Shown here: positions 7,663-47,932 of the stretch, piece after piece
How the letters are laid out: every line of letters begins with the position of its first letter
How positions within the stretch are numbered: position 1 is the first letter of the stretch
Assembly: GCA_000002445.1 (NCBI GenBank)
Contig: CP000070.1
Span: forward strand, 32,001 to 96,000
From: Trypanosoma brucei
Lineage: Eukaryota
Reading direction: 5' to 3'
Length of the DNA stretch: 64,000 nt
Program-made: the position numbers and the translations under genes
The notes under the pieces: model-generated
What the model was told of the DNA's origin: nothing
Seen by the model: only the letters and a program-made list of their open reading frames with translations
Databases searched by the model: none

Positions 7663-7713
7663 TAACCTCATTCATTGTGTCTGCTACAAAACCTTAGAGT
7701 AATTTAAGCTATC

Positions 7714-12610: not shown

Positions 12611-12621
12611 GGGGGGGGGGG
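12611..12621. repeat. G11 homopolymer
   Basis: Direct read (aaaggggggggggggaattt) in the intergenic region downstream of the RPS28 pair. Confidence 0.9.
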
Positions 12622-23605: not shown

Positions 23606-25552
23606 AAAGCGGAATAAAAATAAATCAAGATATAAACAAACAACACCCGTTTCTTTTGGCAAATGGTCATCGTTCCCCTCCCCCCTTTTTTTTTGGGGGG
23701 GGGCGCACACAACCTTTCTTTGATGTCCCTTCGTGGGGATGCTTCAAAATACGCGGCAACAATTGGGGAGTGGTATGCTCCAGATTTAATGGAGGAGTGG
23801 GGGTGGAGGGCCGTGTTTTTATCCCCGGACTGCGCGTTGTGATGAGACAACACCTTCCTTTCTTTTTTTTTATTTCGTTTTGCCATGAGAAGCTGTCGGT
23901 GAGTTTGAGCCATGCGAGAGGGATTTGGAGCCACAAACACCAAATTTAACGACGCGCTCTCCTCTCCGTTCATTTGATGGCTTTTGCGTGCCTTCAGAAA
24001 GTTGAAAATTTAATGAGTCCCCGCACCCCCCTGCCCCGTTTTTCTTGCGCGACATCTGCTTTTTAAATTTATTATTTCCCCTTCTTTTGTTTGTCTGTTT
24101 TTTTTAAATTTTATTCAAAGGGTTTTAATATTTATTTCCCACCCTGTCGTTACGAACTGGCATATTCCGTTGCGTGTTTGAAATGCGGGTGGGAGCGGCT
24201 TGTTGGCACCGTATTATTTTCCCCCCCTCCCTCTTTTATTTTCTTTGGGATGCGTCCGCAATTCCCCTCAGCAACGCATCACATGTGTGGGAATGCGGCG
24301 GTCGGTTGCTCACAAATGCGTTGAGGGAAAAATTAAATTGTGCTGCACGTTTTTTTTTCATACAAAAAAACAAAAAGAAGGTGTCAGGCGGGGCAAAGTC
24401 AGTTGGTTCATTTGGGCGCGCAACTCCGCGGTGAAAAGGCGGAGATGGACGCACACCAAAATATGCGGCGACAACCGCCATTATTGGCTTGATTAGTTGT
24501 GTGACTGGCGAAGCTGAGTGGGGAGCAAAAATTTAAATATATATTTTGACCTTTGAGAGGCGATGCGGAATTCCGGATTTCCACATTATTTCCCCACCCC
24601 CCACCGTACCGAAAACTTTATGGGATTTGGGCTCAAGAAAGCGATTGGAATGCGCGTAGTTGAAGCACCGCCTCAAGGAAGCGCCGCGTCTGATGTTTGT
24701 GGTCTCTTTTTTTTTTATTTTTTAATGGGAACGGAAGAATCCAACGCAGGGCGCAGGACAGGATAATAATAATAATAATGGATTTGTGTTTGTTTGAAAT
24801 ACCGCAGAAGTGTGGTGGCGTGAGAACCTACAAATTATGGAACCCTTGAGGGCACTTAATTATTTTTTTTTCCTCCTCGGCACCGCGTTGCCGACATTTA
24901 AACCAGCCGTTGGAGAGCGGAACAAAACCAAATTAAAAAGTGGCATTTAACCATCCGCAGCCTTCCACTAATCACCGGAGCCATGCGAGTTTTTATTGTC
25001 GGGATTAATCCAAAAAATAAATAAATAAAATATGATGCCAAAAATTTGCGTAGCGGCGTAAACGTTTTTCATTTTTTCCCTCTTCTCAATCCAACGCGGG
25101 TGGCGACAGTCGCCATTTCCGTTTCCTTCCGGTACTTTACGCATTAATTCCATGAAAAAATGCGGTGGCCGGGTCATGCGACGACGTGGCCCAAATAAAT
25201 TCCCCCGCCGCTGCGCCTTCATGTTGTGAAAAAAAAAATCCGTATGCTTCGCGGGGTCCCTCACCTTTTGTCTCCGCCCCTCTTCCGAAAAAAAAAAAGA
25301 AAAAATGAGGATAAAAAGTATAAATATGAATAAAACCAGAGCAGTGCACCAGTTATTTTCTCTTTCCTTTGGATATATATATATATATATATATATGAGT
25401 CATGAAGGTTTCGGTAAAGCTTAACAACCGTTTTTTCCCTACTTTTTCACCCACGGGGCAGAGGCAAAGTTCCTTACAAAACAGCTGCGGCTGCGGGTGT
25501 CAAGAAAATAAGGAGGAAAATATGTTCGTCCGCTGAATGTTTTTTTTTTCAA
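23606..25552. other. Convergent strand-switch region (inferred RNA Pol II transcription termination zone) between the + strand and - strand gene runs
   Basis: Last + strand gene ends at 23605 and the first - strand gene ends at 25553. The interval has no credible ORF. It is rich in homopolymer runs (C5T9G9 at 23681-23703, A/T runs, (AAT)n at 24764-24780, (TA)12 at 25373-25396). No tRNA-like sequence recognised. Confidence 0.6.
25373..25396. repeat. (TA)n microsatellite, ~12 units
   Basis: Direct read of atatatatatatatatatatatat. Confidence 0.9.
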
Positions 25553-31542: not shown

Positions 31543-33971
31543 TATGGGGAAGCATAGAGGAGAATTGTTTCGATCCTCTCTTACAACAAATGTGGCAGGC
31601 AGTACATAACACCGATAGCATGGAAAACAAAACCATAGGCGTCACTCTATTTTCTCACCTTACCCCCTCCCCCCAATAACAGATGCGGCGTCAAGTGGTG
31701 AAAGTTGTCTTGCACAAACAACACAATATCGAGTAATTTGTAGCGCCTTTTTTTTTCTTGTTTAACTGTTAGTACGAGGAGAACATCATGATTGTTATTC
31801 CATTTTTTTCCTCGCGCGGCGTTGAAGGTGCTGAAAGTAAAAGTATGAAAACATTATCGAAATGAGTATAACCGCCAGGCATAGGAGCAACATCCCAAAC
31901 ACCTCAAAAATCACTACATGAGACTCCTTTTCCTTTGAAGCGCGCTCATTTCCATTAAATCCCGCATCGGTTACATTTGGAAATGAGGCCCCAACCAACA
32001 GAAAGTTATAAAATGCCAACATCCCAACACCTGTTGGTTGCGCACCGCAGCGCGAAATAGTAATTATACCAAAAATATGCTTACCTTTCCCCCCTTACGA
32101 TTCCTAATTTAAGAAACAATAATTCCCCCCTCCTCCAACCTGAGTGTGCTATTAATCAAATAAAAACAACAATAACAATAACATGAACATGAACACAATG
32201 GAGTTGGTGACTGGTTAAGTAACACTGAGCCGCGTTACAGCCAACTTCGAACATAACAATGTAACAAGAGGCGCCGTATGGAAAGTGCCGTTTGTTGTCT
32301 GAAATTACAGCCTAAGGATTGGCGCAGCACACATTACTCATATGATAATCTCACTTTTGCAATTCAGATATTGGGAAATGCAACCTTCCGCAAACCCCAT
32401 CATCACGCATTTCCATTTAAAAAGGGGTTTAAACCTGATAAAAAAAAAAAAAGAAAGCAAAGAGAAAATGTTATCCTCCTCCACCCCTGTTGTGTGGAGA
32501 CTAAAAAAGCGGACGTTACTGAAAAGCCATTGTTAGTTTCGTGACCAAACACGCATGATTAGAGAACCATTTACGCACCATTACGAACCGTCTCGCTTCA
32601 CCGTGCAACAATTAAAGCTGCAAAGATATGAAAAAAAAAAATGAGTTCCAGAATTGCATTGCCACGGCGACGCGATAATGCGATGAAAGATAAATGTCTA
32701 TAAAAAAAATATATGACCAAATCGGTATTAAAAATTTTAAAAACAGCGTACTTCATTACATAACATAACACTGCACTACAAAGCAACCCACCACCATAAT
32801 GGAGCGAATGCAAAAACACAATGCCCAGTGAAAAAAAAAACGCAAGTGGAAAGACATTCTACAACAGCGACCAAATCATGCATTAAACAAATTCCTTTCC
32901 CTCCAATAAAACTCACATTCGGTTAATTACACACCTGGCGCCCACAAGTCAAAATGTGCAATGCGCTAAAGATGTTGTGACTGCAGGATTGTACATCTCA
33001 AATAACATTCTCACAAGTATTGACTCTTCCGGCAGGTCTTCCAACTGAAGGTACGAATAATCAAACGCCGTCAACTCGCAACATTTAAAAGAAAATTATT
33101 TCTCTCCTTTCTTTCAGGGACTTTGAAATTGGAGGTTCTGCACAAATCCTCAATCCTCCGGCAGGTGTAAGCTCCACTTCATTTCAGTGGTCAGATACAT
33201 AACTAAATGAAAGTAAAGTATAACTAAACGACAGAGAGATTAAAGCAAAGGGGAAAACAAGTAACGACACTTACAAACAAGAAACAAGATAGTAAAATAA
33301 GTAAGTGGAAAGAAACTTAGGGAATCTAGAAGAAACATGCAGATGAAATAAAAAGAATATGGAGTCCCAAAACACATCACAACGATAAAAACTGAATACC
33401 CCATGACAATAAAAATGGAAACAATTGTGTGGAAGAAAACACTGACAAAATAAATAAAAATAAAATAACAATATCACTATTTGAAAAAAAAAAAGAATCA
33501 AGGGCAAAACGAGTCAGATAAAATAGCAGATGGGTATAGCCGCTATTTGAACACTTTCACAATAAATCCATCAACAAACGATGGGTAAGATGCGGTGTCT
33601 CAACAATGCAGCGTCTGCACACAGAAATCTCCAGTGTCATGTGCCCACCCGAATGTTTAAAGACGCCACACCAATAGGATAGCATTTAAAAAACAATAAT
33701 AACAGAAAAGATAAATATGTGGGAGACGTATGGTTTAAAAAAATGAGTAAAAAGACTTTTTTGTAGCACTGGTGCGGTACGTAAAAATTTAGTATACCAT
33801 TGAATTAAATAAGAATATAATAATGAAACGACCAGCGAAGAAAGCATAGGGGTGAGAAACGCCGTAAGTGGCCCCTCCCGTTGCAGTAGCGCCCTGTAAA
33901 CACGTGTTTAGCTAACGCCTAACTTCGACCTGTCGACACGGTAAGAGGATTAGGGAAACAGTTGACAGCTT

Positions 33972-35120
33972 TTAAAAATGTGCGGCAGCACTGTGAGAAA
34001 GTGCTGCAAGAAGGATCAGTAATGTGTATCCTCCTATAGATTCTGCATAGCTGCCGTCATTACCAACTTCTGCTTCCTCACCCTCATCGTCACCCAATTC
34101 CTGCACATGATCATCGTCAGAAATTTCCACTTTTCCTTCAGGATCCTTCTTCGGTACTTCCTCAACTTCCGTTCTTTCCGTCTTTTCCTTGTCCTCTGGA
34201 ACCTCCACGTTTCCTTCAGGATCCTTCTTCGGTACTTCCTCAACTTCCGTTCTTTCCGTCTTTTCCTTGTCCTCTGGAACCTCCACGTTTCCTTCAGGAT
34301 CCTTCTTCGGTACTTCCTCAACTTCCGTTCTTTCCGTCTTTTCCTTGTCCTCTGGAACCTCCACGTTTCCCTCAAATTCCTCCCTCGAAATCTCTTGAAC
34401 ATCCGCTTTTTCCGTCTCTGCCGTCCTTTCGGCTTCCTCAGCTGCCTTGTGTGCGTTGCTTTCAGCTGCCCTTGCTGCAACTCTTGCTTCGCTGGCACGC
34501 CGCACAGCAGCCTCTAATTGATCATATTCCGCCCTGAGATCAGCCATACCATCCGTCAAGATTTTGCAGATATCGCCAGTGAAGAACTCACACCCAAATT
34601 CCACAGCCTTTTTCAGCACCCAGGAGTTAACTCCTCTATTTGGGAGACTGCAGCCTCTCGCAATTCGTCTTGCAGTACTGGCGGCACTATTGTCCTCTGC
34701 AACACTTTTCAGATAATCATCAACCGGAGCGGTCTTTCCGGCTGCGAGCAGTGGGGCACGGGCCGCGTATTGCTCCACATCCGACAGGGCCGTCTTGGCG
34801 GCATTCTCCGCGCTCTCTGCTTCCTTTAGGGCAGCGCGAGCGCGTCCGACGGCCTCCTCCACCTTGGGAGTACTCGAAAAGGCATCCTCCGCTCGTCTCA
34901 CGGCATCTTGGCAACCTTCTCTCGCTTTAGAGGCATCCGAGACATTCGCTGCCGCCAACGCTTTGAGGGCCTTCACACCGAAGGGTATTCCATGCAGCGC
35001 TTCTGAAAAGAGACATGCCGCACTTACATGGCTCACTGTGTTTTGAGACCCTTCCTCAATTATGGAGTCGGCGGTGACATACGTAAGTATAGCAAGCAAG
35101 CACAAAAAACGGGCAGTCAT
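33972..35120 (-). CDS. Ala/Glu-rich predicted GPI-anchored surface protein, array copy 1 (382 aa, subtype A, three 26-aa repeats)
   Basis: N-terminal signal peptide MTARFLCLLAILTYVTADS. ~20% Ala, acidic. 5-6 conserved Cys. 3 x EGNVEVPEDKEKTERTEVEEVPKKDP. C-terminal GNDGSYAESIGGYTLLILLAALSHSAAAHF (small-residue omega region + hydrophobic tail = GPI signal). Possibly related to GARP/BARP-type alanine-rich trypanosome surface proteins; not verified. Confidence 0.8.
   Translation of the reverse strand: MTARFLCLLAILTYVTADSIIEEGSQNTVSHVSAACLFSEALHGIPFGVKALKALAAANVSDASKAREGCQDAVRRAEDAFSSTPKVEEAVGRARAALKEAESAENAAKTALSDVEQYAARAPLLAAGKTAPVDDYLKSVAEDNSAASTARRIARGCSLPNRGVNSWVLKKAVEFGCEFFTGDICKILTDGMADLRAEYDQLEAAVRRASEARVAARAAESNAHKAAEEAERTAETEKADVQEISREEFEGNVEVPEDKEKTERTEVEEVPKKDPEGNVEVPEDKEKTERTEVEEVPKKDPEGNVEVPEDKEKTERTEVEEVPKKDPEGKVEISDDDHVQELGDDEGEEAEVGNDGSYAESIGGYTLLILLAALSHSAAAHF
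34130..34365 (-). repeat. 78-bp in-frame tandem repeat (3 copies) inside surface gene copy 1
   Basis: ttccttcaggatccttcttcggtacttcctcaacttccgttctttccgtcttttccttgtcctctggaacctccacgt is repeated with period 78. Copy 2 has 2 copies (~37290-37445), copy 5 has 1, copies 3 and 4 have none. Confidence 0.85.
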
Positions 35121-35394
35121 GATTATCCCGAATTGCTGTAGTGGTAGTTGTTAAAATGAATGTTAAGTCTAAATGCAGGCAACAGTAGGAAAGAGTGGGT
35201 AAATGTTTGTATTAATAATTTCCCCCCTCGTGGAAAGCAGTTGTAACATGGGAGGAGGCATGGATGTTGTTCTTTTTGTGATTTTTAAAATTTTTTGTGT
35301 TCAATTTTCTGAGCATTGCTTTATTGGAAGAGATGACGGGACTTATTGCTTTTTCACAGTTGCCGTCGCTAACGGTAGTTGCGTTTCACTATGG

Positions 35395-36071
35395 TTATTC
35401 TTTCGACTGTCCCTGTTCAGCTATAAGTTCTCGAATGGCGATTGTGCTTCCAGATTTTATACTTGCAGTTTTTAATCGGGAGAGAACGCTTTCCAGTCGC
35501 TCGAAAGGATCATCACTAACTGCAGCCAGAATGCTTTTCAAATAACTCAAGTCGGTTACAAGTTGTTCTACTGCAAGGGCCGCAGCATCGTCGCTATTAA
35601 GTGGGAAACACATTGTAATGTTTTGTCAGGAAAGAACTGAAGAACGGCCTTTACAGCTTCCATCAGTCCATTCATAACTACTTGAAATCGATCATACTTC
35701 ATGATAGATTGCGAATCCTTTAAGAGGTCTTCCACGCGCTCTGCTTCTCGCCGTGCAAATGATTCCAGCACCTTAGGTTGCTCGAATATGTGTGCAAGCT
35801 CAGTTTGAGTATAAAAATTAATTTGCTCTGCAATATCGTCCCGCCTACACAAACTGTTTTTAACGTTTCTTCCGTCCTCAGCACCAACACATACCTTCGG
35901 AGGAGTAGAATCAATTTTAATACTAAGCTGCCTTACTGCCTCAAAGCAGGAAATAAGCTCAACATTCCTCTCCACACACTGCAAAATGGGAGTTAAGCAA
36001 GTGGAAAGACATTCTACAACAGCGATCAAATCATGCATTAAACAAACTCCTTTCCCTCCAATAAAACTCAC
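35395..36071 (-). pseudogene. Truncated 3' fragment of the 784-aa (COG7-like) gene with a ~630-bp internal deletion (array unit 1)
   Basis: ORFs 35568..36071 and 35395..35613 together reproduce the C-terminal region of the intact gene (…ECLSTCLTPILQCVERN… and …LAVEQLVTDLSYLKSILAAV…AEQGQSKE). They lack the 5' two-thirds. Deletion junction at taatg|ttttgtcagg. Confidence 0.85.
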
Positions 36072-37131
36072 ATTCGGTTAATTACACACCTGGCGCCCAC
36101 AAGTCAAAATGTGCAATGCGCTAAAGATGTTGTGACTGCAGGATTGTACATCTCAAATAATATTCTCACAAGTATTGACTCTTCCGGCAGGTCTTCCAAC
36201 TGAAGGTACGAATAATCAAACGCCGTCAACTCGCAACATTTAAAGGAAAATTATTTCTCTCCTTTCCTTCAGAGACTTTGAAATTGGAGGTTCTGCACAA
36301 ATCCTCAATCCTCCGGCAGGTGTAAGCTCCACTTCATTTCAGTGGTCAGATACATAACTAAATGAAAGTAAAGTATAACTAAACGACAGAGAGATTAAAG
36401 CAAAGGGGAAAACAAGCAACGACACTTACAAACAAGAAACAAGATAGTAAAATAAGTAAGTGGAAAGAAACTTAGGGAATCTAGAAGAAACATGCAGATG
36501 AAATAAAAAGAATATGGAGTCCCAAAACACATCGCAACGATAAAAACTGAATACCCCATGACAATAAAAATGGAAACAATTGTGTGGAGGGAAGGGTTAT
36601 AAAAGAAAAAAAATAATAATAATGTTATCGTCTTTTTTTATCAAAAAAAATAAATAAATAAAAATGAAGTGAAGCAGATAAAATAGCAGATGGGTATAGC
36701 CGCTATTTGAACACTTTCACAATAAATCCATCAACAAACGATGGGTAAGATGCGGTGTCTCGACAATGCAGCGTCTGCACACAGAAATCTACAGTGTCAT
36801 GCGCCCACCCGAATGTTTAAAGACGCCACACCAATAGGATAGCATTTAAAAAACAATAATAACAGAAAAGATAAATATGTGGGAGACGTATGGTTCAAAA
36901 AAATGAGTAAAAAGACTTTTTTGTAGCACTGGTGCGGTACGTAAAAATTTAGTATACCATTGAATTAAATAAGAATATAATAATGAAACGACCAGCGAAG
37001 AAAGCATAGGGGTGAGAAACGCCGTAAGTGGCCCCTCCCGTTGCAGTAGCGCCCTGTAAACACGTGTTTAGCTAACGCCTAACTTCGACCTGTCGACACG
37101 GTAAGAGGATTAGGGAAACAGTTGACAGCTT

Positions 37132-38202
37132 TTAAAAATGTGCGGCAGCACTGTGAAAAAGTGCTGCAAGAAGGATCAGTAATGTGTATCCTCCTATAGA
37201 TTCTGCATAGCTGCCGTCATTACCAACTTCTGCTTCCTCACCCTCATCGTCACCCAATTCCTGCACATGATCATCGTCAGAAATTTCCACTTTTCCCTCA
37301 GGATCCTTCTTCGGTACTTCCTCAACTTCCGTTCTTTCCGTCTTTTCCTTGTCCTCTGGAACCTCCACGTTTCCTTCAGGATCCTTCTTCGGCACTTCCT
37401 CAACTTCCGTTCTTCCCGTCTTTTCCTTGTCCTCTGGAACCTCCACGTTTCCCTCAAATTCCTCCCTCGAAATCTCTTGAACATCCGCTTCTTCCGTCTC
37501 TGCCGTCCTTTCGGCTTCCTCAGCTGCCTTGCGTGCGTTGCTTTCAGCTGCCCTTGCTGCAACTCTTGCTTCGCCGGCACGCCGCACAGCAGCCTCTAAT
37601 TGATCATATTCCGCCCTGAGATCAACCATACGCGTCCTCGCGATCCTACATATTTCACCCATGAAAATAGCACATGCGGATTCCACAGCCTGTGTCAGCA
37701 CCCAGGAGTTAACTCCTCTATTTGGGAGACTGCAGCCTCTCGCAATTCGTCTTGCAGTACTGGCGGCACTATTGTCCTCTGCAACACTTTTCAGATAATC
37801 ATCAATCGGAGCGGTCTTTCCGGCTGCGAGCAGTGGGGCACGGGCCGCGTATTGCTCCACATCCGACAGGGCCGTCTTGGCGGCATTCTCCGCGCTCTCT
37901 GCTTCCTTTAGGGCAGCGCGAGCGCGTCCGACGGCCTCCTCCGCTTTGGGATTATTCCAAGAGGCATCCTCCGCTCGTCTCACGGCATCTTGGCAACCTT
38001 CTCTCGCTTTAGAGGCATCCGAGACATTCGCTGCCGCCAACGCTTTGAGGGCCTTCACACCGAAGGGTATTCCATGCAGCGCTTCTGAAAAGAGACATGC
38101 CGCACTTACATGACTCACTGTGTTTTGAGACCCTTCCTCAATTATGGAGTCGGCGGTGACATACGTAAGTATAGCAAGCAAGCACAAAAAACGGGCAGTC
38201 AT
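37132..38202 (-). CDS. Ala/Glu-rich predicted GPI-anchored surface protein, array copy 2 (356 aa, subtype A, two 26-aa repeats)
   Basis: Same signal peptide and GPI signal as copy 1. Differs from copy 1 in the central segment (VLTQAVESACAIFMGEICRIARTRMVDL vs VLKKAVEFGCEFFTGDICKILTDGMADL). Confidence 0.8.
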   Translation of the reverse strand: MTARFLCLLAILTYVTADSIIEEGSQNTVSHVSAACLFSEALHGIPFGVKALKALAAANVSDASKAREGCQDAVRRAEDASWNNPKAEEAVGRARAALKEAESAENAAKTALSDVEQYAARAPLLAAGKTAPIDDYLKSVAEDNSAASTARRIARGCSLPNRGVNSWVLTQAVESACAIFMGEICRIARTRMVDLRAEYDQLEAAVRRAGEARVAARAAESNARKAAEEAERTAETEEADVQEISREEFEGNVEVPEDKEKTGRTEVEEVPKKDPEGNVEVPEDKEKTERTEVEEVPKKDPEGKVEISDDDHVQELGDDEGEEAEVGNDGSYAESIGGYTLLILLAALFHSAAAHF

Positions 38203-38476
38203 GATTATCCCGAGTTGCTGTAGTGGTAGTTGTTAAAATGAATGTTAAGTCTAAATGCAGGCAACAGTAGGAAAGAGTGGGTAAATGTTTGTATTAATAA
38301 TTTCCCCCCTCGTGGAAAGCAGTTGTAACATGGGAGGAGGCATGGATGTTGTTCTTTTTGTGATTTTTAAAATTTTTTGTGTTAAATTTTCTGAGCATTG
38401 CTTTATTGGAAGAGATGACGGGACTTATTGCTTTTTCACAGTTGCCGTCGCTAACGGTAGTTGCGTTTCACTATGG

Positions 38477-39775
38477 TTATTCTTTCGACTGTCCCTGTTC
38501 AGCTATAAGTTCTCGAATGGCGATTGTGCTTCCAGATTTTATACTTGCAGTTTTTAATCGGGAGAGAACGCTTTCCAGTCGCTCGAAAGGATCATCACTA
38601 ACTGCAGCCAGAATGCTTTTCAAATAACTCAAGTCGGTTACAAGTTGTTCTACTGCAAGGGCCGCAGCATCGTCGCTATTAAGTGGGAAACACATTATAA
38701 TGTTGGCCACTTTAGACTCAATAAAGTCCGATACCGCCGTGCGCACAATATCATCTAACCAATATTCCGTTACTTCTTCGAGTAACTCTTCAATGCCGTC
38801 GAACCGTCCCTCGCTGCCACCCCGTAATGATTCGAGTGCTAATGGTATTTCCACAATGGCTTCACCAAAGCCGCGCACCATTTCACTAGGCGCAAGATGT
38901 AATGGCGTGTGTAGCACAGAATTGGAAATCACAGCGCTTCCTCCGTTACTCGACTGTAACCTCCAGAGTGGTTGCGACTCATAACCGTCAGCTGTGGCAA
39001 TAACGGGAGCAATGACAGTTTGTTTTATAGCCTGCTGGCATTCAGCAGCACAAATCACCAGTACATTGTTTAGTGGCCGCCACAGCTGTTCACTTAGTTG
39101 ACTATTGATAGACTCAACCTCAGTTGGACGTAGTCGGCGCACCTCCGCAGATTTGACATAGTCTTCGCACATTTTCTGCGTAGACAGAAGCAATTGTTGA
39201 ACAATTTTGCGTAACGCTGAAAGGCGCTCTAACAACTCCGTCTGGTGCGTGTGAGGTGCGGGTTGAAAAAATGTCAGCGACTGGACGAGTGCCACCTTCC
39301 ATCGGCTCACACAGATCGGTAATGTTTTGTCAGGAAAGAACTGAAGAACGGCCTTTACAGCTTCCATCAGTCCATTCATAACTACTTGAAATCGATCATA
39401 CTTCATGATAGATTGCGAATCCTTTAAGAGGTCTTCCACGCGCTCTGCTTCTCGCCGTGCAAATGATTCCAGCACCTTAGGTTGCTCGAATATGTGTGCA
39501 AGCTCAGTTTGAGTATAAAAATTAATTTGCTCTGCAATATCGTCCCGCCTACACAAACTGTTTTTAACGTTTCTTCCGTCCTCAGCACCAACACATACCT
39601 TCGGAGGAGTAGAATCAATTTTAATACTAAGCTGCCTTACTGCCTCAAAGCAGGAAATAAGCTCAACATTCCTCTCCACACACTGCAAAATGGGAGTTAA
39701 GCAAGTGGAAAGACATTCTACAACAGCGACCAAATCATGCATTAAACAAATTCCTTTCCCTCCAATAAAACTCAC
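38477..39775 (-). pseudogene. Truncated 3' fragment (C-terminal 432 codons, undeleted) of the 784-aa gene (array unit 2)
   Basis: Translation is collinear and near-identical to residues ~353-784 of ORF 47933..50287. It begins abruptly at the unit junction. No upstream part of the gene is present. Confidence 0.85.
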
Positions 39776-40834
39776 ATTCGGTTAATTACACACCTGGCGC
39801 CCACAAGTCAAAATGTGCAATGCGCTAAAGATGTTGTGACTGCAGGATTGTACATCTCAAATAATATTCTCACAAGTATTGACTCTTCCGGCAGGTTTTC
39901 CAACTGAAGGTACGAATAATCAAACGCCGTCAACTCGCAACATTTAAAAGAAAATTATTTCTCTCCTTTCTTTCAGGGACTTTGAAATTGGAGGTTCTGC
40001 ACAAATCCTCAATCCTCCGGCAGGTGTAAGCTCCACTTCATTTCAGTGGTCAGATACATAACTAAATGAAAGTAAAGTATAACTAAACGACAGAGAGATT
40101 AAAGCAAAGGGGAAAACAAGCAACGACACTTACAAACAAGAAACAAGATAGTAAAATAAGTAAGTGGAAAGAAACTTAGGGAATCTAGAAGAAACATGCA
40201 GATGAAATAAAAAGAATATGGAGTCCCAAAACACATCGCAACGATAAAAACTGAATACCCCATGACAATAAAAATGGAAACAATTGTGTGGAGGGAAGGG
40301 TTATAAAAGAAAAAAAATAATAATAATGTTATCGTCTTTTTTTATCAAAAAAAATAAATAAATAAAAATGAAGTGAAGCAGATAAAATAGCAGATGGGTA
40401 TAGCCGCTATTTGAACACTTTCACAATAAATCCATCAACAAACGATGGGTAAGATGCGGTGTCTCAACAATGCAGCGTCTGCACACAGAAATCTCCAGTG
40501 TCATGTGCCCACCCGAATGTTTAAAGACGCCACACCAATAGGATAGCATTTAAAAAACAATAATAACAGAAAAGATAAATATGTGGGAGACGTATGGTTT
40601 AAAAAAATGAGTAAAAAGACTTTTTTGTAGCACTGGTGCGGTACGTAAAAATTTAGTATACCATTGAATTAAATAAGAATATAATAATGAAACGACCAGC
40701 GAAGAAAGCATAGGGGTGAGAAACGCCGTAAGTGGCCCCTCCCGTTGCAGTAGCGCCCTGTAACACGTGTTTAGCTAACGCCTAACTTCGACCTGTCGAC
40801 ACGGTAAGAGGATTAGGGAAACAGTTGACAGCTT

Positions 40835-41746
40835 TTAAAAATGTGCGGCAGCACTGTGAAAAAGTGCTGCAAGAAGGATCAGTAATGTGTATCCTCCTAT
40901 AGATTCTGCATAGCTGCCGTCATTACCAACTTCTGCTTCCTCACCCTCATCGTCACCCAATTCCTGCACATGATCATCGTCAGAAATTTCCACTTTTCCT
41001 TCAGGATCCTTCTTCGGCACTTCCTTAACTTTCGCTTTTTCCGTCTCTGCCGTCCTTTCGGCTTCCTCAGCTGCCTTGTGTGCGTTGCTTTCAGCTGCCC
41101 TTGCTGCAACTCTTGCTTCGCTGGCACGCCGCACAGCAGCCTCTAATTGATCATATTCCGCCCTGAGATCAGCCATACGCGCCCTCGCAGTGTTGCAGAT
41201 AACTGTCATGAAAACGGCACAACCGGATTCCACAGCCTGTGTCAGTACCCAGGAACTAACTTCAAGTGGGGCATTGCAGTCTCTCGCAATTCGTCTTGCA
41301 GTACTGGCGGCACTATTGTCCTCTGCAACACTTTTCAGATAATCATCAACCAGAGCTACATTGTTGTTCGCGAGCGCTGAGGCATTGGCAGCGTATTGCT
41401 CCACATCCGACAGGGCCGTCTTGGCGGCATTCTCCGCGCTCTCTGCTTCCTTTAGGGCAGCGCGAGCGCGTCCGACGGCCTCCTCCACCTTGGGAGTACT
41501 CGAAAAGGCATCCTCCGCTCGTCTCACGGCATCTTGGCAACCTTCTCTCGCTTTAGAGGCATCCGAGACATTCGCTGCCGCCGACGTCTTGAACACTTTG
41601 ACACTGTTGGGTACTCCATGCAGCGCTTCCGACATGAGACATGCCGCACTTACATGACTCACTGTGTCTTGAAACCCTTCCCCACCTTTGGGACCGGTGG
41701 TGACATACATAAGTATAGCAAGCAAGCACAAAAAACGGGCAGTCAT
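40835..41746 (-). CDS. Ala/Glu-rich predicted GPI-anchored surface protein, array copy 3 (303 aa, subtype B, no 26-aa repeat)
   Basis: Shares signal peptide, Cys positions, central Ala-rich helical region and GPI signal. Divergent N-terminal third (TTGPKGGEGFQDTVSHVSAACLMSEALHGVPNSVKVFKTSAAANV…ANASALANNNVALVDDY…). Confidence 0.8.
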   Translation of the reverse strand: MTARFLCLLAILMYVTTGPKGGEGFQDTVSHVSAACLMSEALHGVPNSVKVFKTSAAANVSDASKAREGCQDAVRRAEDAFSSTPKVEEAVGRARAALKEAESAENAAKTALSDVEQYAANASALANNNVALVDDYLKSVAEDNSAASTARRIARDCNAPLEVSSWVLTQAVESGCAVFMTVICNTARARMADLRAEYDQLEAAVRRASEARVAARAAESNAHKAAEEAERTAETEKAKVKEVPKKDPEGKVEISDDDHVQELGDDEGEEAEVGNDGSYAESIGGYTLLILLAALFHSAAAHF

Positions 41747-42020
41747 GATTATCCCGAATTGCTGTAGTGGTAGTTGTTAAAATGAATGTTAAGTCTAAAT
41801 GCAGGCAACAGTAGGAAAGAGTGGGTAAATGTTTGTATTAATAATTTCCCCCCTCGTGGAAAGCAGTTGTAACATGGGAGGAGGCATGGATGTTGTTCTT
41901 TTTGTGATTTTTAAAATTTTTTGTGTTCAATTTTCTGAGCATTGCTTTATTGGAAGAGATGACGGGACTTATTGCTTTTTCACAGTTGCCGTCGCTAACG
42001 GTAGTTGCGTTTCACTATGG

Positions 42021-42693
42021 TTATTCTTTCGACTGTCCCTGTTCAGCTATAAGTTCTCGAATGGCGATTGTGCTTCCAGATTTTATACTTGCACTTTTTA
42101 ATCGGGAGAGAACGCTTTCCAGTCGCTCGAAAGGATCATCACTAACTGCAGCCAGAATGCTTTTCAAATAACTCAAGTCGGTTACAAAATGACAGCGACT
42201 GGACGAGTGCCACCTTCCATCGGCTCACACAGATCGGTAATGTTTTGTCAGGAAAGAACTGAAGAACGGCCTTTACAGCTTCCATCAGTCCATTCATAAC
42301 TACTTGAAATCGATCATACTTCATGATAGATTGCGAATCCTTTAAGAGGTCTTCCACGCGCTCTGCTTCTCGCCGTGCAAATGATTTCAGCACCTTAGGT
42401 TGCTCGAATATGTGTGCAAGCTCAGTTTGAGTATAAAAATTAATTTGCTCTGCAATATCGTCCCGCCTACACAAACTGTTTTTAACGTTTCTTCCGTCCT
42501 CAGCACCAACACATACCTTCGGAGGAGTAGAATCAATTTTAATACTAAGCTGCCTTACTGCCTCAAAGCAGGAAATAAGCTCAACATTCCTCTCCACACA
42601 CTGCAAAATGGGAGTTAAGCAAGTGGAAAGACATTCTACAACAGCGACCAAATCATGCATTAAACAAATTCCTTTCCCTCCAATAAAACTCAC
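42021..42693 (-). pseudogene. Truncated 3' fragment of the 784-aa gene with a ~630-bp internal deletion and frameshift (array unit 3)
   Basis: ORF 42142..42693 matches the intact gene over …ECLSTCLTPILQ…KVALVQSL, then goes out of frame at the deletion junction gttacaa|aatgacagcgactgg. The extreme 3' end through the ancestral stop position (42021) is retained. Confidence 0.85.
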
Positions 42694-43753
42694 ATTCGGT
42701 TAATTACACACCTGGCGCCCACAAGTCAAAATGTGCAATGCGCTAAAGATGTTGTGACTGCAGGATTGTACATCTCAAATAATATTCTCACAAGTATTGA
42801 CTCTTCCGGCAGGTCTTCCAACTGAAGGTACGAATAATCAAACGCCGTCAACTCGCAACATTTAAAAGAAAATTATTTCTCTCCTTTCTTTCAGGGACTT
42901 TGAAATTGGAGGTTCTGCACAAATCCTCAATCCTCCGGCAGGTGTAAGCTCCACTTCATTTCAGTGGTCAGATACATAACTAAATGAAAGTAAAGTATAA
43001 CTAAACGACAGAGAGATTAAAGCAAAGGGGAAAACAAGCAACGACACTTACAAACAAGAAACAAGATAGTAAAATAAGTAAGTGGAAAGAAACTTAGGGA
43101 ATCTAGAAGAAACATGCAGATGAAATAAAAAGAATATGGAGTCCCAAAACACATCGCAACGATAAAAACTGAATACCCCATGACAATAAAAATGGAAACA
43201 ATTGTGTGGAGGGAAGGGTTATAAAAGAAAAAAAATAATAATAATGTTATCGTCTTTTTTTATCAAAAAAAATAAATAAATAAAAATGAAGTGAAGCAGA
43301 TAAAATAGCAGATGGGTATAGCCGCTATTTGAACACTTTCACAATAAATCCATCAACAAACGATGGGTAAGATGCGGTGTCTCAACAATGCAGCGTCTGC
43401 ACACAGAAATCTCCAGTGTCATGTGCCCACCCGAATGTTTAAAGACGCCACACCAATAGGATAGCATTTAAAAAACAATAATAACAGAAAAGATAAATAT
43501 GTGGGAGACGTATGGTTTAAAAAAATGAGTAAAAAGACTTTTTTGTAGCACTGGTGCGGTACGTAAAAATTTAGTATACCATTGAATTAAATAAGAATAT
43601 AATAATGAAACGACCAGCGAAGAAAGCATAGGGGTGAGAAACGCCGTAAGTGGCCCCTCCCGTTGCAGTAGCGCCCTGTAAACACGTGTTTAGCTAACGC
43701 CTAACTTCGACCTGTCGACACGGTAAGAGGATTAGGGAAACAGTTGACAGCTT

Positions 43754-44665
43754 TTAAAAATGTGCGGCAGCACTGTGAGAAAGTGCTGCAAGAAGGATCA
43801 GTAATGTGTATCCTCCTATAGATTCTGCATAGCTGCCGTCATTACCAACTTCTGCTTCCTCACCCTCATCGTCACCCAATTCCTGCACATGATCATCGTC
43901 AGAAATTTCCACTTTTCCTTCAGGATCCTTCTTCGGCACTTCCTTAACTTTCGCTTTTTCCGTCTCTGCCGTCCTTTCGGCTTCCTCAGCTGCCTTGTGT
44001 GCGTTGCTTTCAGCTGCCCTTGCTGCAACTCTTGCTTCGCTGGCACGCCGCACAGCAGCCTCTAATTGATCATATTCCGCCCTGAGATCAGCCATACGCG
44101 TCCTCGCAGTGTTGCAGATAACTGTCATGAAAACGGCACAACCGGATTCCACAGCCTGTGTCAGTACCCAGGAACTAACTTCAAGTGGGGCATTGCAGTC
44201 TCTCGCAATTCGTCTTGCAGTACTGGCGGCACTATTGTCCTCTGCAACACTTTTCAGATAATCATCAACCAGAGCTACATTGTTGTTCGCGAGCGCTGAG
44301 GCATTGGCAGCGTATTGCTCCACATCCGACAGGGCCGTCTTGGCGGCATTCTCCGCGCTCTCTGCTTCCTTTAGGGCAGCGCGAGCGCGTCCGACGGCCT
44401 CCTCCACCTTGGGAGTACTCGAAAAGGCATCCTCCGCTCGTCTCACGGCATCTTGGCAACCTTCTCTCGCTTTAGAGGCATCCAAGACATTCGCTGCCGC
44501 CGACGTCTTGAACACTTTGACACTGTTGGGTACTCCATGCAGCGCTTCCGACATGAGACATGCCGCACTTACATGACTCACTGTGTCTTGAAACCCTTCC
44601 CCACCTTTGGGACCGGTGGTGACATACGTAAGTATAGCAAGCAAGCACAAAAAACGGGCAGTCAT
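43754..44665 (-). CDS. Ala/Glu-rich predicted GPI-anchored surface protein, array copy 4 (303 aa, subtype B; 4 aa differences from copy 3)
   Basis: Near-identical to copy 3. Differences: ILT/ILM, NVL/NVS, ART/ARA, LSH/LFH. Confidence 0.8.
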   Translation of the reverse strand: MTARFLCLLAILTYVTTGPKGGEGFQDTVSHVSAACLMSEALHGVPNSVKVFKTSAAANVLDASKAREGCQDAVRRAEDAFSSTPKVEEAVGRARAALKEAESAENAAKTALSDVEQYAANASALANNNVALVDDYLKSVAEDNSAASTARRIARDCNAPLEVSSWVLTQAVESGCAVFMTVICNTARTRMADLRAEYDQLEAAVRRASEARVAARAAESNAHKAAEEAERTAETEKAKVKEVPKKDPEGKVEISDDDHVQELGDDEGEEAEVGNDGSYAESIGGYTLLILLAALSHSAAAHF

Positions 44666-44939
44666 GATTATCCCGAATTGCTGTAGTGGTAGTTGTTAAA
44701 ATGAATGTTAAGTCTAAATGCAGGCAACAGTAGGAAAGAGTGGGTAAATGTTTGTATTAATAATTTCCCCCCTCGTGGAAAGCAGTTGTAACATGGGAGG
44801 AGGCATGGATGTTGTTCTTTTTGTGATTTTTAAAATTTTTTGTGTTCAATTTTCTGAGCATTGCTTTATTGGAAGAGATGACGGGACTTATTGCTTTTTC
44901 ACAGTTGCCGTCGCTAACGGTAGTTGCGTTTCACTATGG

Positions 44940-45612
44940 TTATTCTTTCGACTGTCCCTGTTCAGCTATAAGTTCTCGAATGGCGATTGTGCTTCCAGAT
45001 TTTATACTTGCAGTTTTTAATCGGGAGAGAACGCTTTCCAGTCGCTCGAAAGGATCATCACTAACTGCAGCCAGAATGCTTTTCAAATAACTCAAGTCGG
45101 TTACAAAATGACAGCGACTGGACGAGTGCCACCTTCCATCGGCTCACACAGATCGGTAATGTTTTGTCAGGAAAGAACTGAAGAACGGCCTTTACAGCTT
45201 CCATCAGTCCATTCATAACTACTTGAAATCGATCATACTTCATGATAGATTGCGAATCCTTTAAGAGGTCTTCCACGCGCTCTGCTTCTCGCCGTGCAAA
45301 TGATTCCAGCACCTTAGGTTGCTCGAATATGTGTGCAAGCTCAGTTTGAGTATAAAAATTAATTTGCTCTGCAATATCGTCCCGCCTACACAAACTGTTT
45401 TTAACGTTTCTTCCGTCCTCAGCACCAACACATACCTTCGGAGGAGTAGAATCAATTTTAATACTAAGCTGCCTTACTGCCTCAAAGCAGGAAATAAGCT
45501 CAACATTCCTCTCCACACACTGCAAAATGGGAGTTAAGCAAGTGGAAAGACATTCTACAACAGCGACCAAATCATGCATTAAACAAATTCCTTTCCCTCC
45601 AATAAAACTCAC
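44940..45612 (-). pseudogene. Truncated 3' fragment of the 784-aa gene with the same ~630-bp deletion as unit 3 (array unit 4)
   Basis: Same junction gttacaa|aatgacagcgactgg as unit 3. ORF 45061..45612. Confidence 0.85.
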
Positions 45613-46665
45613 ATTCGGTTAATTACACACCTGGCGCCCACAAGTCAAAATGTGCAATGCGCTAAAGATGTTGTGACTGCAGGATTGTACATCTCAAATA
45701 ATATTCTCACAAGTATTGACTCTTCCGGCAGGTTTTCCAACTGAAGGTACGAATAATCAAACGCCGTCAACTCGCAACATTTAAAAGAAAATTATTTCTC
45801 TCCTTTCTTTCAGGGACTTTGAAATTGGAGGTTCTGCACAAATCCTCAATCCTCCGGCAGGTGTAAGCTCCACTTCATTTCAGTGGTCAGATACATAACT
45901 AAATGAAAGTAAAGTATAACTAAACGACAGAGAGATTAAAGCAAAGGGGAAAACAAGCAACGACACTTACAAACAAGAAACAAGATAGTAAAATAAGTAA
46001 GTGGAAAGAAACTTAGGGAATCTAGAAGAAACATGCAGATGAAATAAAAAGAATATGGAGTCCCAAAACACATCGCAACGATAAAAACTGAATACCCCAT
46101 GACAATAAAAATGGAAACAATTGTGTGGAAGAAAACACTGACAAAATAAATAAAAATAAAATAACAATATCACTATTTGAAAAAAAAAAGAATCAAGGGC
46201 AAAACGAGTCAGATAAAATAGCAGATGGGTATAGCCGCTATTTGAACACTTTCACAATAAATCCATCAACAAACGATGGGTAAGATGCGGTGTCTCGACA
46301 ATGCAGCGTCTGCACACAGAAATCTACAGTGTCATGCGCCCACCCGAATGTTTAAAGACGCCACACCAATAGGATAGCATTTAAAAAACAATAATAACAG
46401 AAAAGATAAATATGTGGGAGACGTATGGTTCAAAAAATGAGTAAAAAGACTTTTTTGTAGCACTGGTGCGGTACGTAAAAATTTAGTATACCATTGAATT
46501 AAATAAGAATATAATAATGAAACGACCAGCGAAGAAAGCATAGGGGTGAGAAACGCCGTAAGTGGCCCCTCCCGTTGCAGTAGCGCCCTGTAAACACGTG
46601 TTTAGCTAACGCCTAACTTCGACCTGTCGACACGGTAAGAGGATTAGGGAAACAGTTGACAGCTT

Positions 46666-47658
46666 TTAAAAATGTGCGGCAGCACTGTGAAAAAGTGCTG
46701 CAAGAAGGATCAGTAATGTGTATCCTCCTATAGATTCTGCATAGCTGCCGTCATTACCAACTTCTGCTTCCTCACCCTCATCGTCACCCAATTCCTGCAC
46801 ATGATCATCGTCAGAAATTTCCACTTTTCCTTCAGGATCCTTCTTCGGCACTTCCTCAACTTCCGTTCTTCCCGTCTTTTCCTTGTCCTCTGGAACCTCC
46901 ACGTTTCCCTCAAATTCCTCCCTCGAAATCTCTTGAACATCCGCTTCTTCCGTCTCTGCCGTCCTTTCGGCTTCCTCAGCTGCCTTGCGTGCGTTGCTTT
47001 CAGCTGCCCTTGCTGCAACTCTTGCTTCGCTGGCACGCCGCACAGCAGCCTCTAATTGATCATATTCCGCCCTGAGATCAACCATACGCGTCCTCGCGAT
47101 CCTACATATTTCACCCATGAAAATAGCACATGCGGATTCCACAGCCTGTGTCAGCACCCAGGAGTTAACTCCTCTATTTGGGAGACTGCAGCCTCTCGCA
47201 ATTCGTCTTGCAGTACTGGCGGCACTATTGTCCTCTGCAACACTTTTCAGATAATCATCAATCGGAGCGGTCTTTCCGGCTGCGAGCAGTGGGGCACGGG
47301 CCGCGTATTGCTCCACATCCGACAGGGCCGTCTTGGCGGCATTCTCCGCGCTCTCTGCTTCCTTTAGGGCAGCGCGAGCGCGTCCGACGGCCTCCTCCAC
47401 CTTGGGAGTACTCGAAAAGGCATCCTCCGCTCGTCTCACGGCATCTTGGCAACCTTCTCTCGCTTTAGAGGCATCCGAGACATTCGCTGCCGCCGACGCT
47501 TTGAGGGCCTTCACACCGAAGGGTATTCCATGCAGCGCTTCTGAAAAGAGACATGCCGCACTTACATGACTCACTGTGTTTTGAGACCCTTCCTCAATTA
47601 TGGAGTCGGCGGTGACATACGTAAGTATAGCAAGCAAGCACAAAAAACGGGCAGTCAT
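46666..47658 (-). CDS. Ala/Glu-rich predicted GPI-anchored surface protein, array copy 5 (330 aa, subtype A, one 26-aa repeat). Sits immediately downstream of the intact 784-aa gene.
   Basis: Same signal peptide and GPI signal. Essentially copy 2 with one fewer 78-bp repeat. Confidence 0.8.
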   Translation of the reverse strand: MTARFLCLLAILTYVTADSIIEEGSQNTVSHVSAACLFSEALHGIPFGVKALKASAAANVSDASKAREGCQDAVRRAEDAFSSTPKVEEAVGRARAALKEAESAENAAKTALSDVEQYAARAPLLAAGKTAPIDDYLKSVAEDNSAASTARRIARGCSLPNRGVNSWVLTQAVESACAIFMGEICRIARTRMVDLRAEYDQLEAAVRRASEARVAARAAESNARKAAEEAERTAETEEADVQEISREEFEGNVEVPEDKEKTGRTEVEEVPKKDPEGKVEISDDDHVQELGDDEGEEAEVGNDGSYAESIGGYTLLILLAALFHSAAAHF

Positions 47659-47932
47659 GATTATCCCGAATTGCTGTAGTGGTAGTTGTTAAAATGAATG
47701 TTAAGTCTAAATGCAGGCAACAGTAGGAAAGAGTGGGTAAATGTTTGTATTAATAATTTCCCCCCTCGTGGAAAGCAGTTGTAACATGGGAGGAGGCATG
47801 GATGTTGTTCTTTTTGTGATTTTTAAAATTTTTTGTGTTCAATTTTCTGAGCATTGCTTTATTGGAAGAGATGACGGGACTTATTGCTTTTTCACAGTTG
47901 CCGTCGCTAACGGTAGTTGCGTTTCACTATGG

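What the first reader, a model, noticed from the sequence alone, without database searches (positions are those of the whole stretch)
34130..47000. Copy-number polymorphism (3, 2, 0, 0, 1) of a 78-bp/26-aa acidic repeat among the array genes
The membrane-proximal region just upstream of the GPI signal contains 0-3 copies of EGNVEVPEDKEKTERTEVEEVPKKDP. This gives proteins of 382, 356, 330 and 303 aa from otherwise near-identical genes. A variable-length charged Pro/Glu/Lys stalk next to the anchor would set how far the folded domain projects from the membrane. It is also a classic substrate for slippage and unequal exchange.
Basis: seen in the sequence. Interest (0 to 1): 0.55.

Follow-up and report, generated by a model that had tools for sequence, protein, structure and literature searches.

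The report
Known MISP surface-protein tail repeats
The five genes are the already published MISP surface-protein genes of the sleeping-sickness parasite Trypanosoma brucei, and their 0 to 3 copies of a 26-residue acidic repeat, and the idea that it acts as a variable-length tether, were described in 2023, so the finding is real but not new.

Summary
Five minus-strand genes carry 3, 2, 0, 0 and 1 exact or near-exact 78-nt units (EGNVEVPEDKEKTERTEVEEVPKKDP) and encode proteins of 382, 356, 303, 303 and 330 aa. None of this is new. The window is T. b. brucei TREU927 chromosome 7. The five proteins are exact matches to XP_845660/62/64/66/68, which are Tb927.7.360/380/400/420/440. This is the MISP family (Fam50 subfamily iv, also called SGE1; head-domain crystal structure PDB 5VTL). 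Casas-Sánchez et al. [quoted passage not shown] The paper's primers applied to the window give exactly its amplicon sizes, so an assembly artefact is effectively excluded. Small corrections: the repeats sit next to the head, not next to the anchor; the variation is between paralogues, not alleles; and the tail looks like a flexible coil, not a rigid stalk. Modest additions from this work: repeat number and head-domain segments reassort between subspecies, and the ORFs between the MISP genes are fragments of the neighbouring COG7 gene, with array units bounded by a 23-bp direct repeat. Function remains unproven, because MISP knock-out has no tsetse phenotype.

The parts
33972..35120 (-). MISP360 (Tb927.7.360, XP_845660) CDS, 382 aa, 3 repeat units
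   Evidence: ORF. Exact match to the TREU927 protein. Pfam GARP PF16731 E=6e-51. PDB 5VTL_A E=1e-123.
34140..34373 (-). Three tandem 78-nt units (aa 250-327), EGNVEVPEDKEKTERTEVEEVPKKDP x3. Units 2 and 3 are identical in DNA; unit 1 differs by one synonymous base.
34374..34403 (-). Degenerate leading part-unit DVQEISREEF (aa 240-249), homologous to EVEEVPKKDP. In the paper's register it forms part of the first motif.
   Evidence: Tandem Repeats Finder extended rows
34050..34139 (-). Post-repeat acidic segment EGKVEISDDDHVQELGDDEGEEAEVGNDGS (aa 328-357), ending at the predicted GPI attachment site Ser357
33972..34049 (-). C-terminal hydrophobic GPI-addition signal YAESIGGYTLLILLAALSHSAAAHF plus the stop codon
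   Evidence: Sequence inspection and hydropathy. Predicted helix 357-381. The paper predicts attachment at Ser357.
37132..38202 (-). MISP380 (Tb927.7.380, XP_845662) CDS, 356 aa, 2 units
37300..37455 (-). Two tandem 78-nt units. The first carries the TGRT variant and is identical in DNA to the single unit of MISP440.
40835..41746 (-). MISP400 (Tb927.7.400, XP_845664) CDS, 303 aa, MISP-B type. It has no full unit and retains only KVKEVPKKDPEGKVEIS...
43754..44665 (-). MISP420 (Tb927.7.420, XP_845666) CDS, 303 aa, MISP-B type, no full unit
46666..47658 (-). MISP440 (Tb927.7.440, XP_845668) CDS, 330 aa, 1 unit
46834..46911 (-). Single 78-nt unit (TGRT variant)
32842..49179 (-). Whole tandem array: five units of 3155, 3704, 2918, 2919 and 3619 bp. 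They are delimited by six exact copies of the 23-mer GCAAGTGGAAAGACATTCTACAA (starts at 32842, 35997, 39701, 42619, 45538 and 49157).
47933..50287 (-). Intact COG7-like gene (784 aa). Its 3' 1.25 kb forms part of every array unit.
   Evidence: Pfam PF10191 E=9e-19
38477..39775 (-). Duplicated 3' fragment of COG7 (432-aa ORF, full-length 3' part). Shorter, internally deleted fragments lie at 35568-36071, 42142-42693 and 45061-45612.

Best explanation
These are the five Metacyclic Invariant Surface Protein (MISP) genes of Trypanosoma brucei brucei TREU927 chromosome 7: Tb927.7.360, 380, 400, 420 and 440 (Fam50 subfamily iv, also called SGE1).

Each protein has four parts: a signal peptide, a triple-helical-bundle head of the GARP type, a highly charged acidic C-terminal tail, and a GPI-addition signal. 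The tail holds 3, 2, 0, 0 and 1 copies of a 26-residue unit. The unit number changes by slippage or unequal exchange within the 78-nt array, and by gene conversion between the paralogues of the roughly 3-kb tandem gene array.

The repeat region most likely behaves as an intrinsically disordered polyampholyte tether between head and anchor. More units give the head a longer reach relative to the surrounding metacyclic VSG coat, rather than a fixed height.

Shown: the identity of the genes, the reality of the repeat, the copy numbers, the composition, and the between-subspecies reshuffling. Inferred: the disorder (from sequence metrics and a low-confidence model), the mutational mechanism, and the tether function.

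All the main points are already published (PMC10089363).
For: Identity:
- All five translated ORFs are exact matches to TREU927 proteins XP_845660/62/64/66/68 on a 2,205,233-bp contig.
- Pfam GARP domain, E = 6e-51 and 1e-44.
- PDB 5VTL_A, 'Tb427.07.360 metacyclic invariant surface protein', aligns over aa 26-234 with 5 differences.

Repeat:
- Six 78-nt units, none expected by chance.
- Whole-unit indels in the protein alignment.

Reality of the copy numbers:
- The paper's primers applied to the window give amplicons of 410, 332, 176, 176 and 254 bp. These are the sizes the paper lists, and it reports four RT-PCR bands for trypanosome cDNA.
- MISP360 amplified from AnTat 1.1 genomic DNA spans Asp18-Phe382.
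- T. equiperdum also has a 3-unit gene.

Disorder and tether:
- Unit net charge -5, fraction of charged residues 0.58, mean hydropathy 0.29 against a boundary of 0.48.
- Tails of 118, 92, 66 and 40 residues.
- AlphaFold gives coil at pLDDT 30-40 for residues 253-356.
- The paper predicts the same and models the head above the VSG coat. A 2024 paper treats the MISP tail as an intrinsically disordered region.

Exchange:
- Units differ at only 4 of 78 positions, in recombinant combinations.
- Array order in the direction of transcription is 1,0,0,2,3 in TREU927 and 1,1,0,0,3 in T. equiperdum; the T. b. gambiense assembly has 1,0.
- Head segments reassort independently of repeat number.
Against: - No function is demonstrated. 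CRISPR knock-out and RNAi of all MISP paralogues had no effect on development in tsetse, and vaccination did not protect mice.
- The tether model rests on modelling, both here and in the paper.
- The AlphaFold model is of low overall confidence (mean pLDDT 56, 8-sequence alignment), so low pLDDT in the tail is only weak evidence of disorder.
- A random coil gains only about 12 Å of mean end-to-end distance per unit, so the effect on height may be small unless crowding in the coat stretches the chain.
- The most highly expressed paralogues are the repeat-less ones.
- The T. equiperdum and T. b. gambiense assemblies used for comparison are imperfect: one is a MiSeq plus low-coverage PacBio hybrid with homopolymer indels in this array, and the other holds only two genes.
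Confidence: 0.85

Rival explanations
1. The copy-number differences are an assembly artefact: collapse or expansion of the 78-nt repeat, or chimeric joining of near-identical 3-kb array units.
For: The array units are 92-99% identical, which is the kind of region that assemblers mishandle. The T. b. gambiense assembly holds only two MISP genes. The T. equiperdum copies carry homopolymer indels.
Against: - The longest repeat block is only 234 nt, shorter than a Sanger read.
- In-silico PCR with the published primers gives 410/332/254/176 bp, and the paper reports four RT-PCR bands of those size classes for trypanosome cDNA.
- MISP360 amplified from AnTat 1.1 genomic DNA is 382 aa long.
- A 3-unit gene is also present in T. 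equiperdum.
Confidence: 0.02
2. The repeat-number variation is real but functionally neutral. It is a by-product of slippage and gene conversion in a tandem array of a dispensable gene family, and tail length has no selected role.
For: - Knock-out of all ten alleles gives no phenotype in tsetse.
- Copy number at equivalent array positions differs between subspecies, and head type is not tied to repeat number.
- A disordered coil changes mean extension little per unit.
Against: - Every unit keeps its reading frame. The 12 units compared differ at 4 nucleotide sites, giving only two amino-acid variants (E/G at unit position 14, E/K at unit position 1).
- The 3-unit tail travels with the same '360-type' pocket segment (KKAVEFGCEFFTGDICKILTDG) in TREU927, Lister 427 and T. 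equiperdum.
- The long isoforms are specifically up-regulated in salivary-gland stages.
- The phenotype in the vertebrate skin has not been tested.
Confidence: 0.3
3. The repeat is itself the functional element rather than a spacer. It could be a protease-sensitive release linker that lets the head be shed into saliva, a multivalent adhesive or ligand-binding module, or an immunodominant decoy epitope, as tandem repeats are in other parasite surface antigens.
For: - MISP peptides are found in infected tsetse saliva.
- The authors note Lys/Arg-rich tails with predicted protease sites, and suggest both sequential binding and release.
- The unit sequence is almost invariant across subspecies, which is more than a pure spacer strictly needs.
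Against: - No binding partner or cleavage has been shown.
- Near-identity of the units is equally explained by recent concerted evolution.
- No other protein family in 1.8 billion representative sequences carries the motif, so no function can be borrowed from relatives.
- Vaccination with MISP360 gave no protection.
Confidence: 0.15

Closest known systems
T. brucei MISP family (Tb927.7.360-440; Fam50 subfamily iv; SGE1). Casas-Sánchez et al. 2023, PMC10089363; Vigneron et al. 2020, PMC7007551; Jackson et al. 2013, PMC3605285
   Same: It is this family. All five proteins are exact sequence matches. The gene order is the same, the 26-residue motif is the same (the paper writes it in another register, EVEEVPKKDPEGNVEVPEDKEKTERT), the counts of 1-3 and 0 are the same, and so is the tether interpretation.
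   Different: Nothing differs in the object itself. Points not in the paper: the intervening 'unrelated hypothetical' genes are COG7 3' fragments, the array units are bounded by a 23-bp direct repeat, and in T. equiperdum a MISP-B-type head carries one repeat.
T. congolense GARP and T. brucei BARP (other Fam50 GPI-anchored insect-stage coat proteins)
   Different: Head identity is only about 15%. phmmer did not retrieve them. Nearly all BARP isoforms lack a C-terminal tail altogether. The 26-residue repeat is specific to MISP.
T. brucei haptoglobin-haemoglobin receptor (HpHbR), and the ISG65/ISG75 disordered C-terminal linkers
   Same: A helical-bundle head sits on a C-terminal extension that positions the binding site relative to the VSG coat. 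This comparison is made in the paper and in PMC11065263.
   Different: Their linkers are not built from a copy-number-variable tandem repeat. HpHbR has a known ligand, whereas MISP has none.
EP/GPEET procyclins of T. brucei (comparison from my own knowledge, not tested here)
   Same: GPI-anchored insect-stage coat proteins encoded in tandem arrays. Their acidic Glu/Pro-rich repeat region next to the anchor varies in repeat number between paralogues.
   Different: Procyclin repeats are dipeptide (EP) or pentapeptide (GPEET) and make up most of the mature protein as an extended rod. MISP repeats are 26 residues long, mixed-charge, and form a minor part of the protein beneath a folded head.

Membership tests
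MISP (Fam50 subfamily iv) of Trypanosoma brucei | Sequence identity to Tb927.7.360/380/400/420/440 | tested here: met
   All five translated ORFs are exact full-length matches to XP_845660, XP_845662, XP_845664, XP_845666 and XP_845668 of T. b. brucei TREU927.
MISP (Fam50 subfamily iv) of Trypanosoma brucei | GARP-type triple-helical-bundle N-terminal ectodomain | tested here: met
   Pfam PF16731, E = 6e-51 and 1e-44, covering profile positions 2-193 of 193. PDB 5VTL_A, E = 1e-123 over aa 26-234. AlphaFold gives long helices across residues 27-252.
MISP (Fam50 subfamily iv) of Trypanosoma brucei | Five tandem paralogues on chromosome 7 downstream of the COG7-like and prenyltransferase genes | tested here: met
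   Five units between 32842 and 49179. COG7 (PF10191) at 47933-50287 and prenyltransferase (PF00432) at 50554-52329. The same neighbours are present in T. b. gambiense and T. equiperdum.
MISP (Fam50 subfamily iv) of Trypanosoma brucei | One to three 26-residue C-terminal motifs (MISP-A) or none (MISP-B) | tested here: met
   3, 2, 0, 0 and 1 units. This matches the paper's description.
MISP (Fam50 subfamily iv) of Trypanosoma brucei | [quoted passage not shown] | not testable with these tools
   Literature only: RT-PCR, immunofluorescence and saliva proteomics.
GPI-anchored surface protein | N-terminal signal peptide, plus a C-terminal hydrophobic signal preceded by small residues at the attachment site | tested here: met
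   By inspection only: MTARFLCLLAILTYVTA at the N terminus, and ...NDGS|YAESIGGYTLLILLAALSHSAAAHF at the C terminus with mean hydropathy +1.6 over the last 17 residues. No dedicated predictor was run. The paper predicts attachment at Ser357. Actual anchoring cannot be tested here.
Intrinsically disordered tether (IDR linker) | Low hydropathy and high net charge, with no stable predicted secondary structure | tested here: met
   Tail mean hydropathy 0.32-0.34 against a boundary of 0.50-0.52; net charge per residue -0.25 to -0.29. Coil with pLDDT 30-40 for residues 253-356, but the model is of low overall confidence.
Intrinsically disordered tether (IDR linker) | Experimentally disordered, and length-dependent positioning of the head | not testable with these tools
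   Needs NMR, SAXS or CD, and isogenic add-back lines. The paper offers modelling only.

The most novel reading that the evidence does not exclude
Tail length may be an independently evolving module. Repeat number and head-domain segments reassort by gene conversion or unequal exchange within the array on the timescale of T. brucei subspecies. TREU927 reads 1,0,0,2,3 in the direction of transcription and T. equiperdum reads 1,1,0,0,3. In T. equiperdum a MISP-B-type head carries one repeat, and a mosaic A/B head carries three. If so, the published split 'MISP-A = repeats, MISP-B = no repeats' is not a stable lineage division. The 3-unit tail, however, stays linked to the '360-type' pocket segment in three strains, which hints at co-selection of the longest tether with one pocket variant.
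Probability: 0.4. Interest if true: 0.25.

Novelty: already known. Interest (0 to 1): 0.1.

Why it matters
[quoted passage not shown] Whether tail length decides if the head emerges above the VSG coat bears on how 'invariant' proteins stay accessible or hidden. That question is already posed and partly addressed in the literature, so this scan result adds no new biology. What it adds is small: confirmation that the repeat counts are genuine, a note that repeat number and head type reshuffle between subspecies, and a re-annotation of the intervening ORFs as COG7 fragments.

Tried and rejected
1. Looking for the repeat in other proteins. phmmer of the 382-aa protein against 1.8 billion representative sequences returned only the MISP cluster itself, plus one weak hit (E = 3e-4) to the tail from an unrelated repetitive 150-aa protein. 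I judged that hit to be low-complexity noise. Even T. congolense MISP, GARP and BARP were not retrieved, probably because they are too distant or absent from the library. The gain-versus-loss polarity of the repeat therefore could not be set with an outgroup.\n\n2. The word-indexed protein search returned only 5 clusters, all from the T. brucei group. T. evansi and the Lister 427 long-read assembly were not available, so a same-strain long-read check was not possible.\n\n3. T. equiperdum as an 'independent long-read assembly'. The genome paper shows a MiSeq plus roughly 7,500-read PacBio hybrid, and the array copies carry homopolymer indels. I treat it as supportive only.\n\n4. AlphaFold for disorder. 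The alignment was shallow (8 sequences) and the mean pLDDT was 56. I used it only as weak support and ran no fold search, since a crystal structure of the head already exists.\n\n5. Alternate-frame ORFs across the repeat (34034-34498 on the minus strand, 34107-34517 on the plus strand, and their equivalents in genes 2 and 5). I rejected these as stop-free by-products of a repeated sequence.\n\n6. A relationship between the MISP unit and the other 78-nt tandem repeat at 63526-64000. There is no sequence similarity.


Full report
**What is there.** The region holds five minus-strand ORFs of 382, 356, 303, 303 and 330 aa, at 33972-35120, 37132-38202, 40835-41746, 43754-44665 and 46666-47658. Tandem Repeats Finder reports a 78-nt period with 3.2 copies at 98% matches (34126-34374) and 2.2 copies (37286-37456). 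A search with the 78-nt unit finds six copies with at most 3 mismatches, all on the minus strand. Three are in gene 1 (34140-34373), two in gene 2 (37300-37455) and one in gene 5 (46834-46911). None was expected in 100 dinucleotide-preserving shuffles. The protein alignment shows that the length differences are whole 26-residue units. The observed pattern of 3, 2, 0, 0, 1 is therefore correct.

**Corrections to the observation.**
- The step from 330 to 303 aa is 27 residues. The two repeat-less genes also lack one residue in the head domain.
- The units occupy aa 250-327 of the longest protein. They begin about 13 residues after the helical head, and 30 acidic residues (EGKVEISDDDHVQELGDDEGEEAEVGNDGS) separate them from the predicted GPI attachment site Ser357. 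They are next to the head, not 'just upstream of the GPI signal'.
- Degenerate part-units flank the perfect ones: DVQEISREEF upstream and EVEEVPKKDPEGKVEISDDD downstream. The '0-copy' genes keep the downstream part as KVKEVPKKDPEGK....
- The heads are 84-94% identical and fall into two types, so the genes are not 'otherwise near-identical'.
- The variation is between paralogues in one haploid assembly. It is not a shown allelic polymorphism.

**What it is.** All five translated ORFs are exact full-length matches to T. b. brucei TREU927 proteins XP_845660, XP_845662, XP_845664, XP_845666 and XP_845668, on a 2.2-Mb contig. The head matches Pfam GARP (PF16731) at E = 6e-51. It is nearly identical to PDB 5VTL chain A, 'Tb427.07.360 metacyclic invariant surface protein' (E = 1e-123). 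These are the MISP genes Tb927.7.360, 380, 400, 420 and 440, which belong to Fam50 subfamily iv and are also called SGE1.

**It is already published.** Casas-Sánchez et al. [quoted passage not shown] They give the motif in a shifted register (EVEEVPKKDPEGNVEVPEDKEKTERT, or DVQEISREEFEGNVEVPEDKEKTERT). They draw the repeats on the chromosome-7 map and predict a signal peptide and a GPI attachment site. They describe the tail as predicted to be highly disordered and compare its length with VSG C-termini. By that measure MISP360 and MISP380 tails are about 71% and 34% longer, MISP440 is equal, and MISP400/420 are 60% shorter. They model the longer isoforms as projecting above the metacyclic VSG coat. 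They also exploit the 78-bp steps in an isoform-resolving RT-PCR. A 2024 paper on disordered regions of invariant surface glycoproteins cites MISP as a case of a disordered C-terminal region that allows operation beyond the coat.

I ran the paper's primers on the window. They give amplicons of 410, 332, 176, 176 and 254 bp for genes 1 to 5. These are exactly the sizes the paper lists, and it reports a gel with four RT-PCR bands of those classes for trypanosome cDNA. The paper also amplified MISP360 from AnTat 1.1 genomic DNA as Asp18-Phe382, which is the 3-unit length. T. equiperdum IVM-t1 has a 381-aa gene with three units. The longest repeat block is only 234 nt. I consider collapse excluded for practical purposes. 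A same-strain long-read check could not be made with the data available here.

**Properties of the repeat.**
- The unit has 10 acidic and 5 basic residues: net charge -5, fraction of charged residues 0.58, and 3 prolines.
- The tails between head and GPI attachment site are 118, 92, 66 and 40 residues long. All lie far on the 'disordered' side of the charge-hydropathy boundary, whereas the heads lie on the folded side.
- AlphaFold2 on an 8-sequence alignment gives helices up to residue 252, coil at pLDDT 30-40 for residues 253-356, and a terminal hydrophobic helix. The overall confidence is low, so this is weak support.
- With denatured-chain scaling, the mean end-to-end distance rises from about 43 Å with 0 units to about 82 Å with 3 units. 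That is roughly 12 Å per unit, against 94 Å of contour length per unit.

The repeat is thus better described as a flexible tether that extends reach than as a rigid stalk that sets height. Crowding in the coat could stretch it, but that is inference.

**How the copy number changes.** Twelve units from TREU927, T. equiperdum and T. b. gambiense differ at only 4 of 78 positions, and those variants occur in recombinant combinations. In TREU927 the single unit of MISP440 is identical in DNA to the first unit of MISP380.

| Assembly | Units per gene, in transcription order from COG7 |
|---|---|
| T. b. brucei TREU927 | 1, 0, 0, 2, 3 |
| T. equiperdum IVM-t1 | 1, 1, 0, 0, 3 |
| T. b. gambiense DAL972 (only two genes assembled) | 1, 0 |

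A table of diagnostic head segments shows mosaics:
- T. equiperdum P0010 has a complete MISP-B-type head with one repeat.
- T. equiperdum P0001 combines an A-type N terminus, a B-type middle, the 360-type pocket segment and three repeats.
- T. b. gambiense P0003 has a B-type N terminus on an otherwise 380-type protein with one repeat.

This fits slippage or unequal exchange within the 78-nt array together with gene conversion between array units. The paper does not discuss this and does not include T. equiperdum.

Caveats apply. The T. equiperdum assembly is a MiSeq plus low-coverage PacBio hybrid, and two of its MISP copies carry 1-nt indels, mostly in homopolymer runs, that may be sequencing errors. 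The T. b. gambiense array may be collapsed.

**Structure of the array.** Six exact copies of a 23-mer, GCAAGTGGAAAGACATTCTACAA, start at 32842, 35997, 39701, 42619, 45538 and 49157. They delimit five units of 3155, 3704, 2918, 2919 and 3619 bp. The right-most copy lies inside the intact COG7-like gene (47933-50287; PF10191). Each unit therefore consists of the 3' part of COG7, an intergenic stretch, a MISP gene and its 3' flank. The COG7 part is complete, about 1.25 kb, in two units and has an internal deletion of about 620 bp in three. The ORFs at 35568-36071, 38477-39775, 42142-42693 and 45061-45612 are COG7 fragments. [quoted passage not shown]

**Function.** Function is not established. 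Knock-out of all ten alleles and RNAi gave no defect in tsetse colonisation, and vaccination with MISP360 did not protect mice. The authors suggest a role at transmission or in the skin. The rival readings are neutral length drift, and a role for the repeat itself as a protease-sensitive release linker, adhesive module or decoy epitope. Neither can be excluded with sequence tools. No other protein family in 1.8 billion representative sequences carries the motif, so nothing can be inferred from relatives.

**Verdict.** Novelty: already known. Interest is low. The only additions are the between-subspecies reshuffling of repeat number and head segments, and the COG7-fragment and 23-bp-junction anatomy of the array.

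Noticed in passing
window 32842-49179; 23-mers at 32842, 35997, 39701, 42619, 45538, 49157; ORFs 35568-36071, 38477-39775, 42142-42693, 45061-45612 (-): The ORFs between the MISP genes are duplicated 3' fragments of the adjacent COG7-like gene (47933-50287). They are annotated as hypothetical proteins Tb927.7.370/390/410/430, and the MISP paper calls them 'unrelated'. The five array units are bounded by exact 23-bp direct repeats, one of which lies inside the intact COG7 coding sequence. Three of the fragments carry an internal deletion of about 620 bp.
   Followed up: yes
L001 (T. equiperdum CM010678.1) 1174-11146; L003 10001-10990; L002 (T. b. gambiense FN554970.1) 10001-13907: Head-domain segments and repeat number reassort between subspecies. 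A B-type head carries 1 repeat in T. equiperdum, and a mosaic head carries 3 repeats. The array order is 1,1,0,0,3 against 1,0,0,2,3 in TREU927. T. b. gambiense P0003 has lost its stop codon and gained 7 extra residues (HFKSCQLFP).
   Followed up: partly
L001 4165-5079 and 7081-7994: Two T. equiperdum MISP copies carry 1-nt indels, mostly in homopolymer runs, that break the reading frame. They may be uncorrected PacBio errors in a repeat region. They may instead be decay of a tsetse-stage gene in a parasite that is not transmitted by tsetse.
   Followed up: partly
window 63526-64000 (-), ORF continuing from 61676: A second, unrelated 78-nt (26-aa) tandem repeat, PREYKEERETTSPSDPQNSTATLRPY, has at least 6 copies at 97% identity. 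It lies at the 5' end of a gene that runs off the window. The ORF has no Pfam match, and the repeat has no similarity to the MISP unit.
   Followed up: partly
window 18638-20251 (+), tandem repeat 18782-19284: A leucine-rich-repeat protein (537 aa, several LRR Pfam models) contains a 213-nt tandem duplication at 80-86% identity.
   Followed up: no
window ~23600-25550: A convergent strand-switch region. Plus-strand ORFs end at 23605 and minus-strand ORFs end at 25553. No tRNA gene was found anywhere in the window.
   Followed up: no
window 34034-34498 (-), 34107-34517 (+), 37194-37580 (-), 37267-37599 (+), 46728-47036 (-): Long alternate-frame ORFs (102-154 aa, Arg/Lys-rich or Phe/Leu-rich) overlap the repeats. 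They exist only because the repeated unit is free of stop codons in those frames, and they are not genes.
   Followed up: yes
window 7609-7661 and 6945-6971: Perfect microsatellites, (TTA)x17.7 and (TG)x13.5, lie in an intergenic stretch.
   Followed up: no
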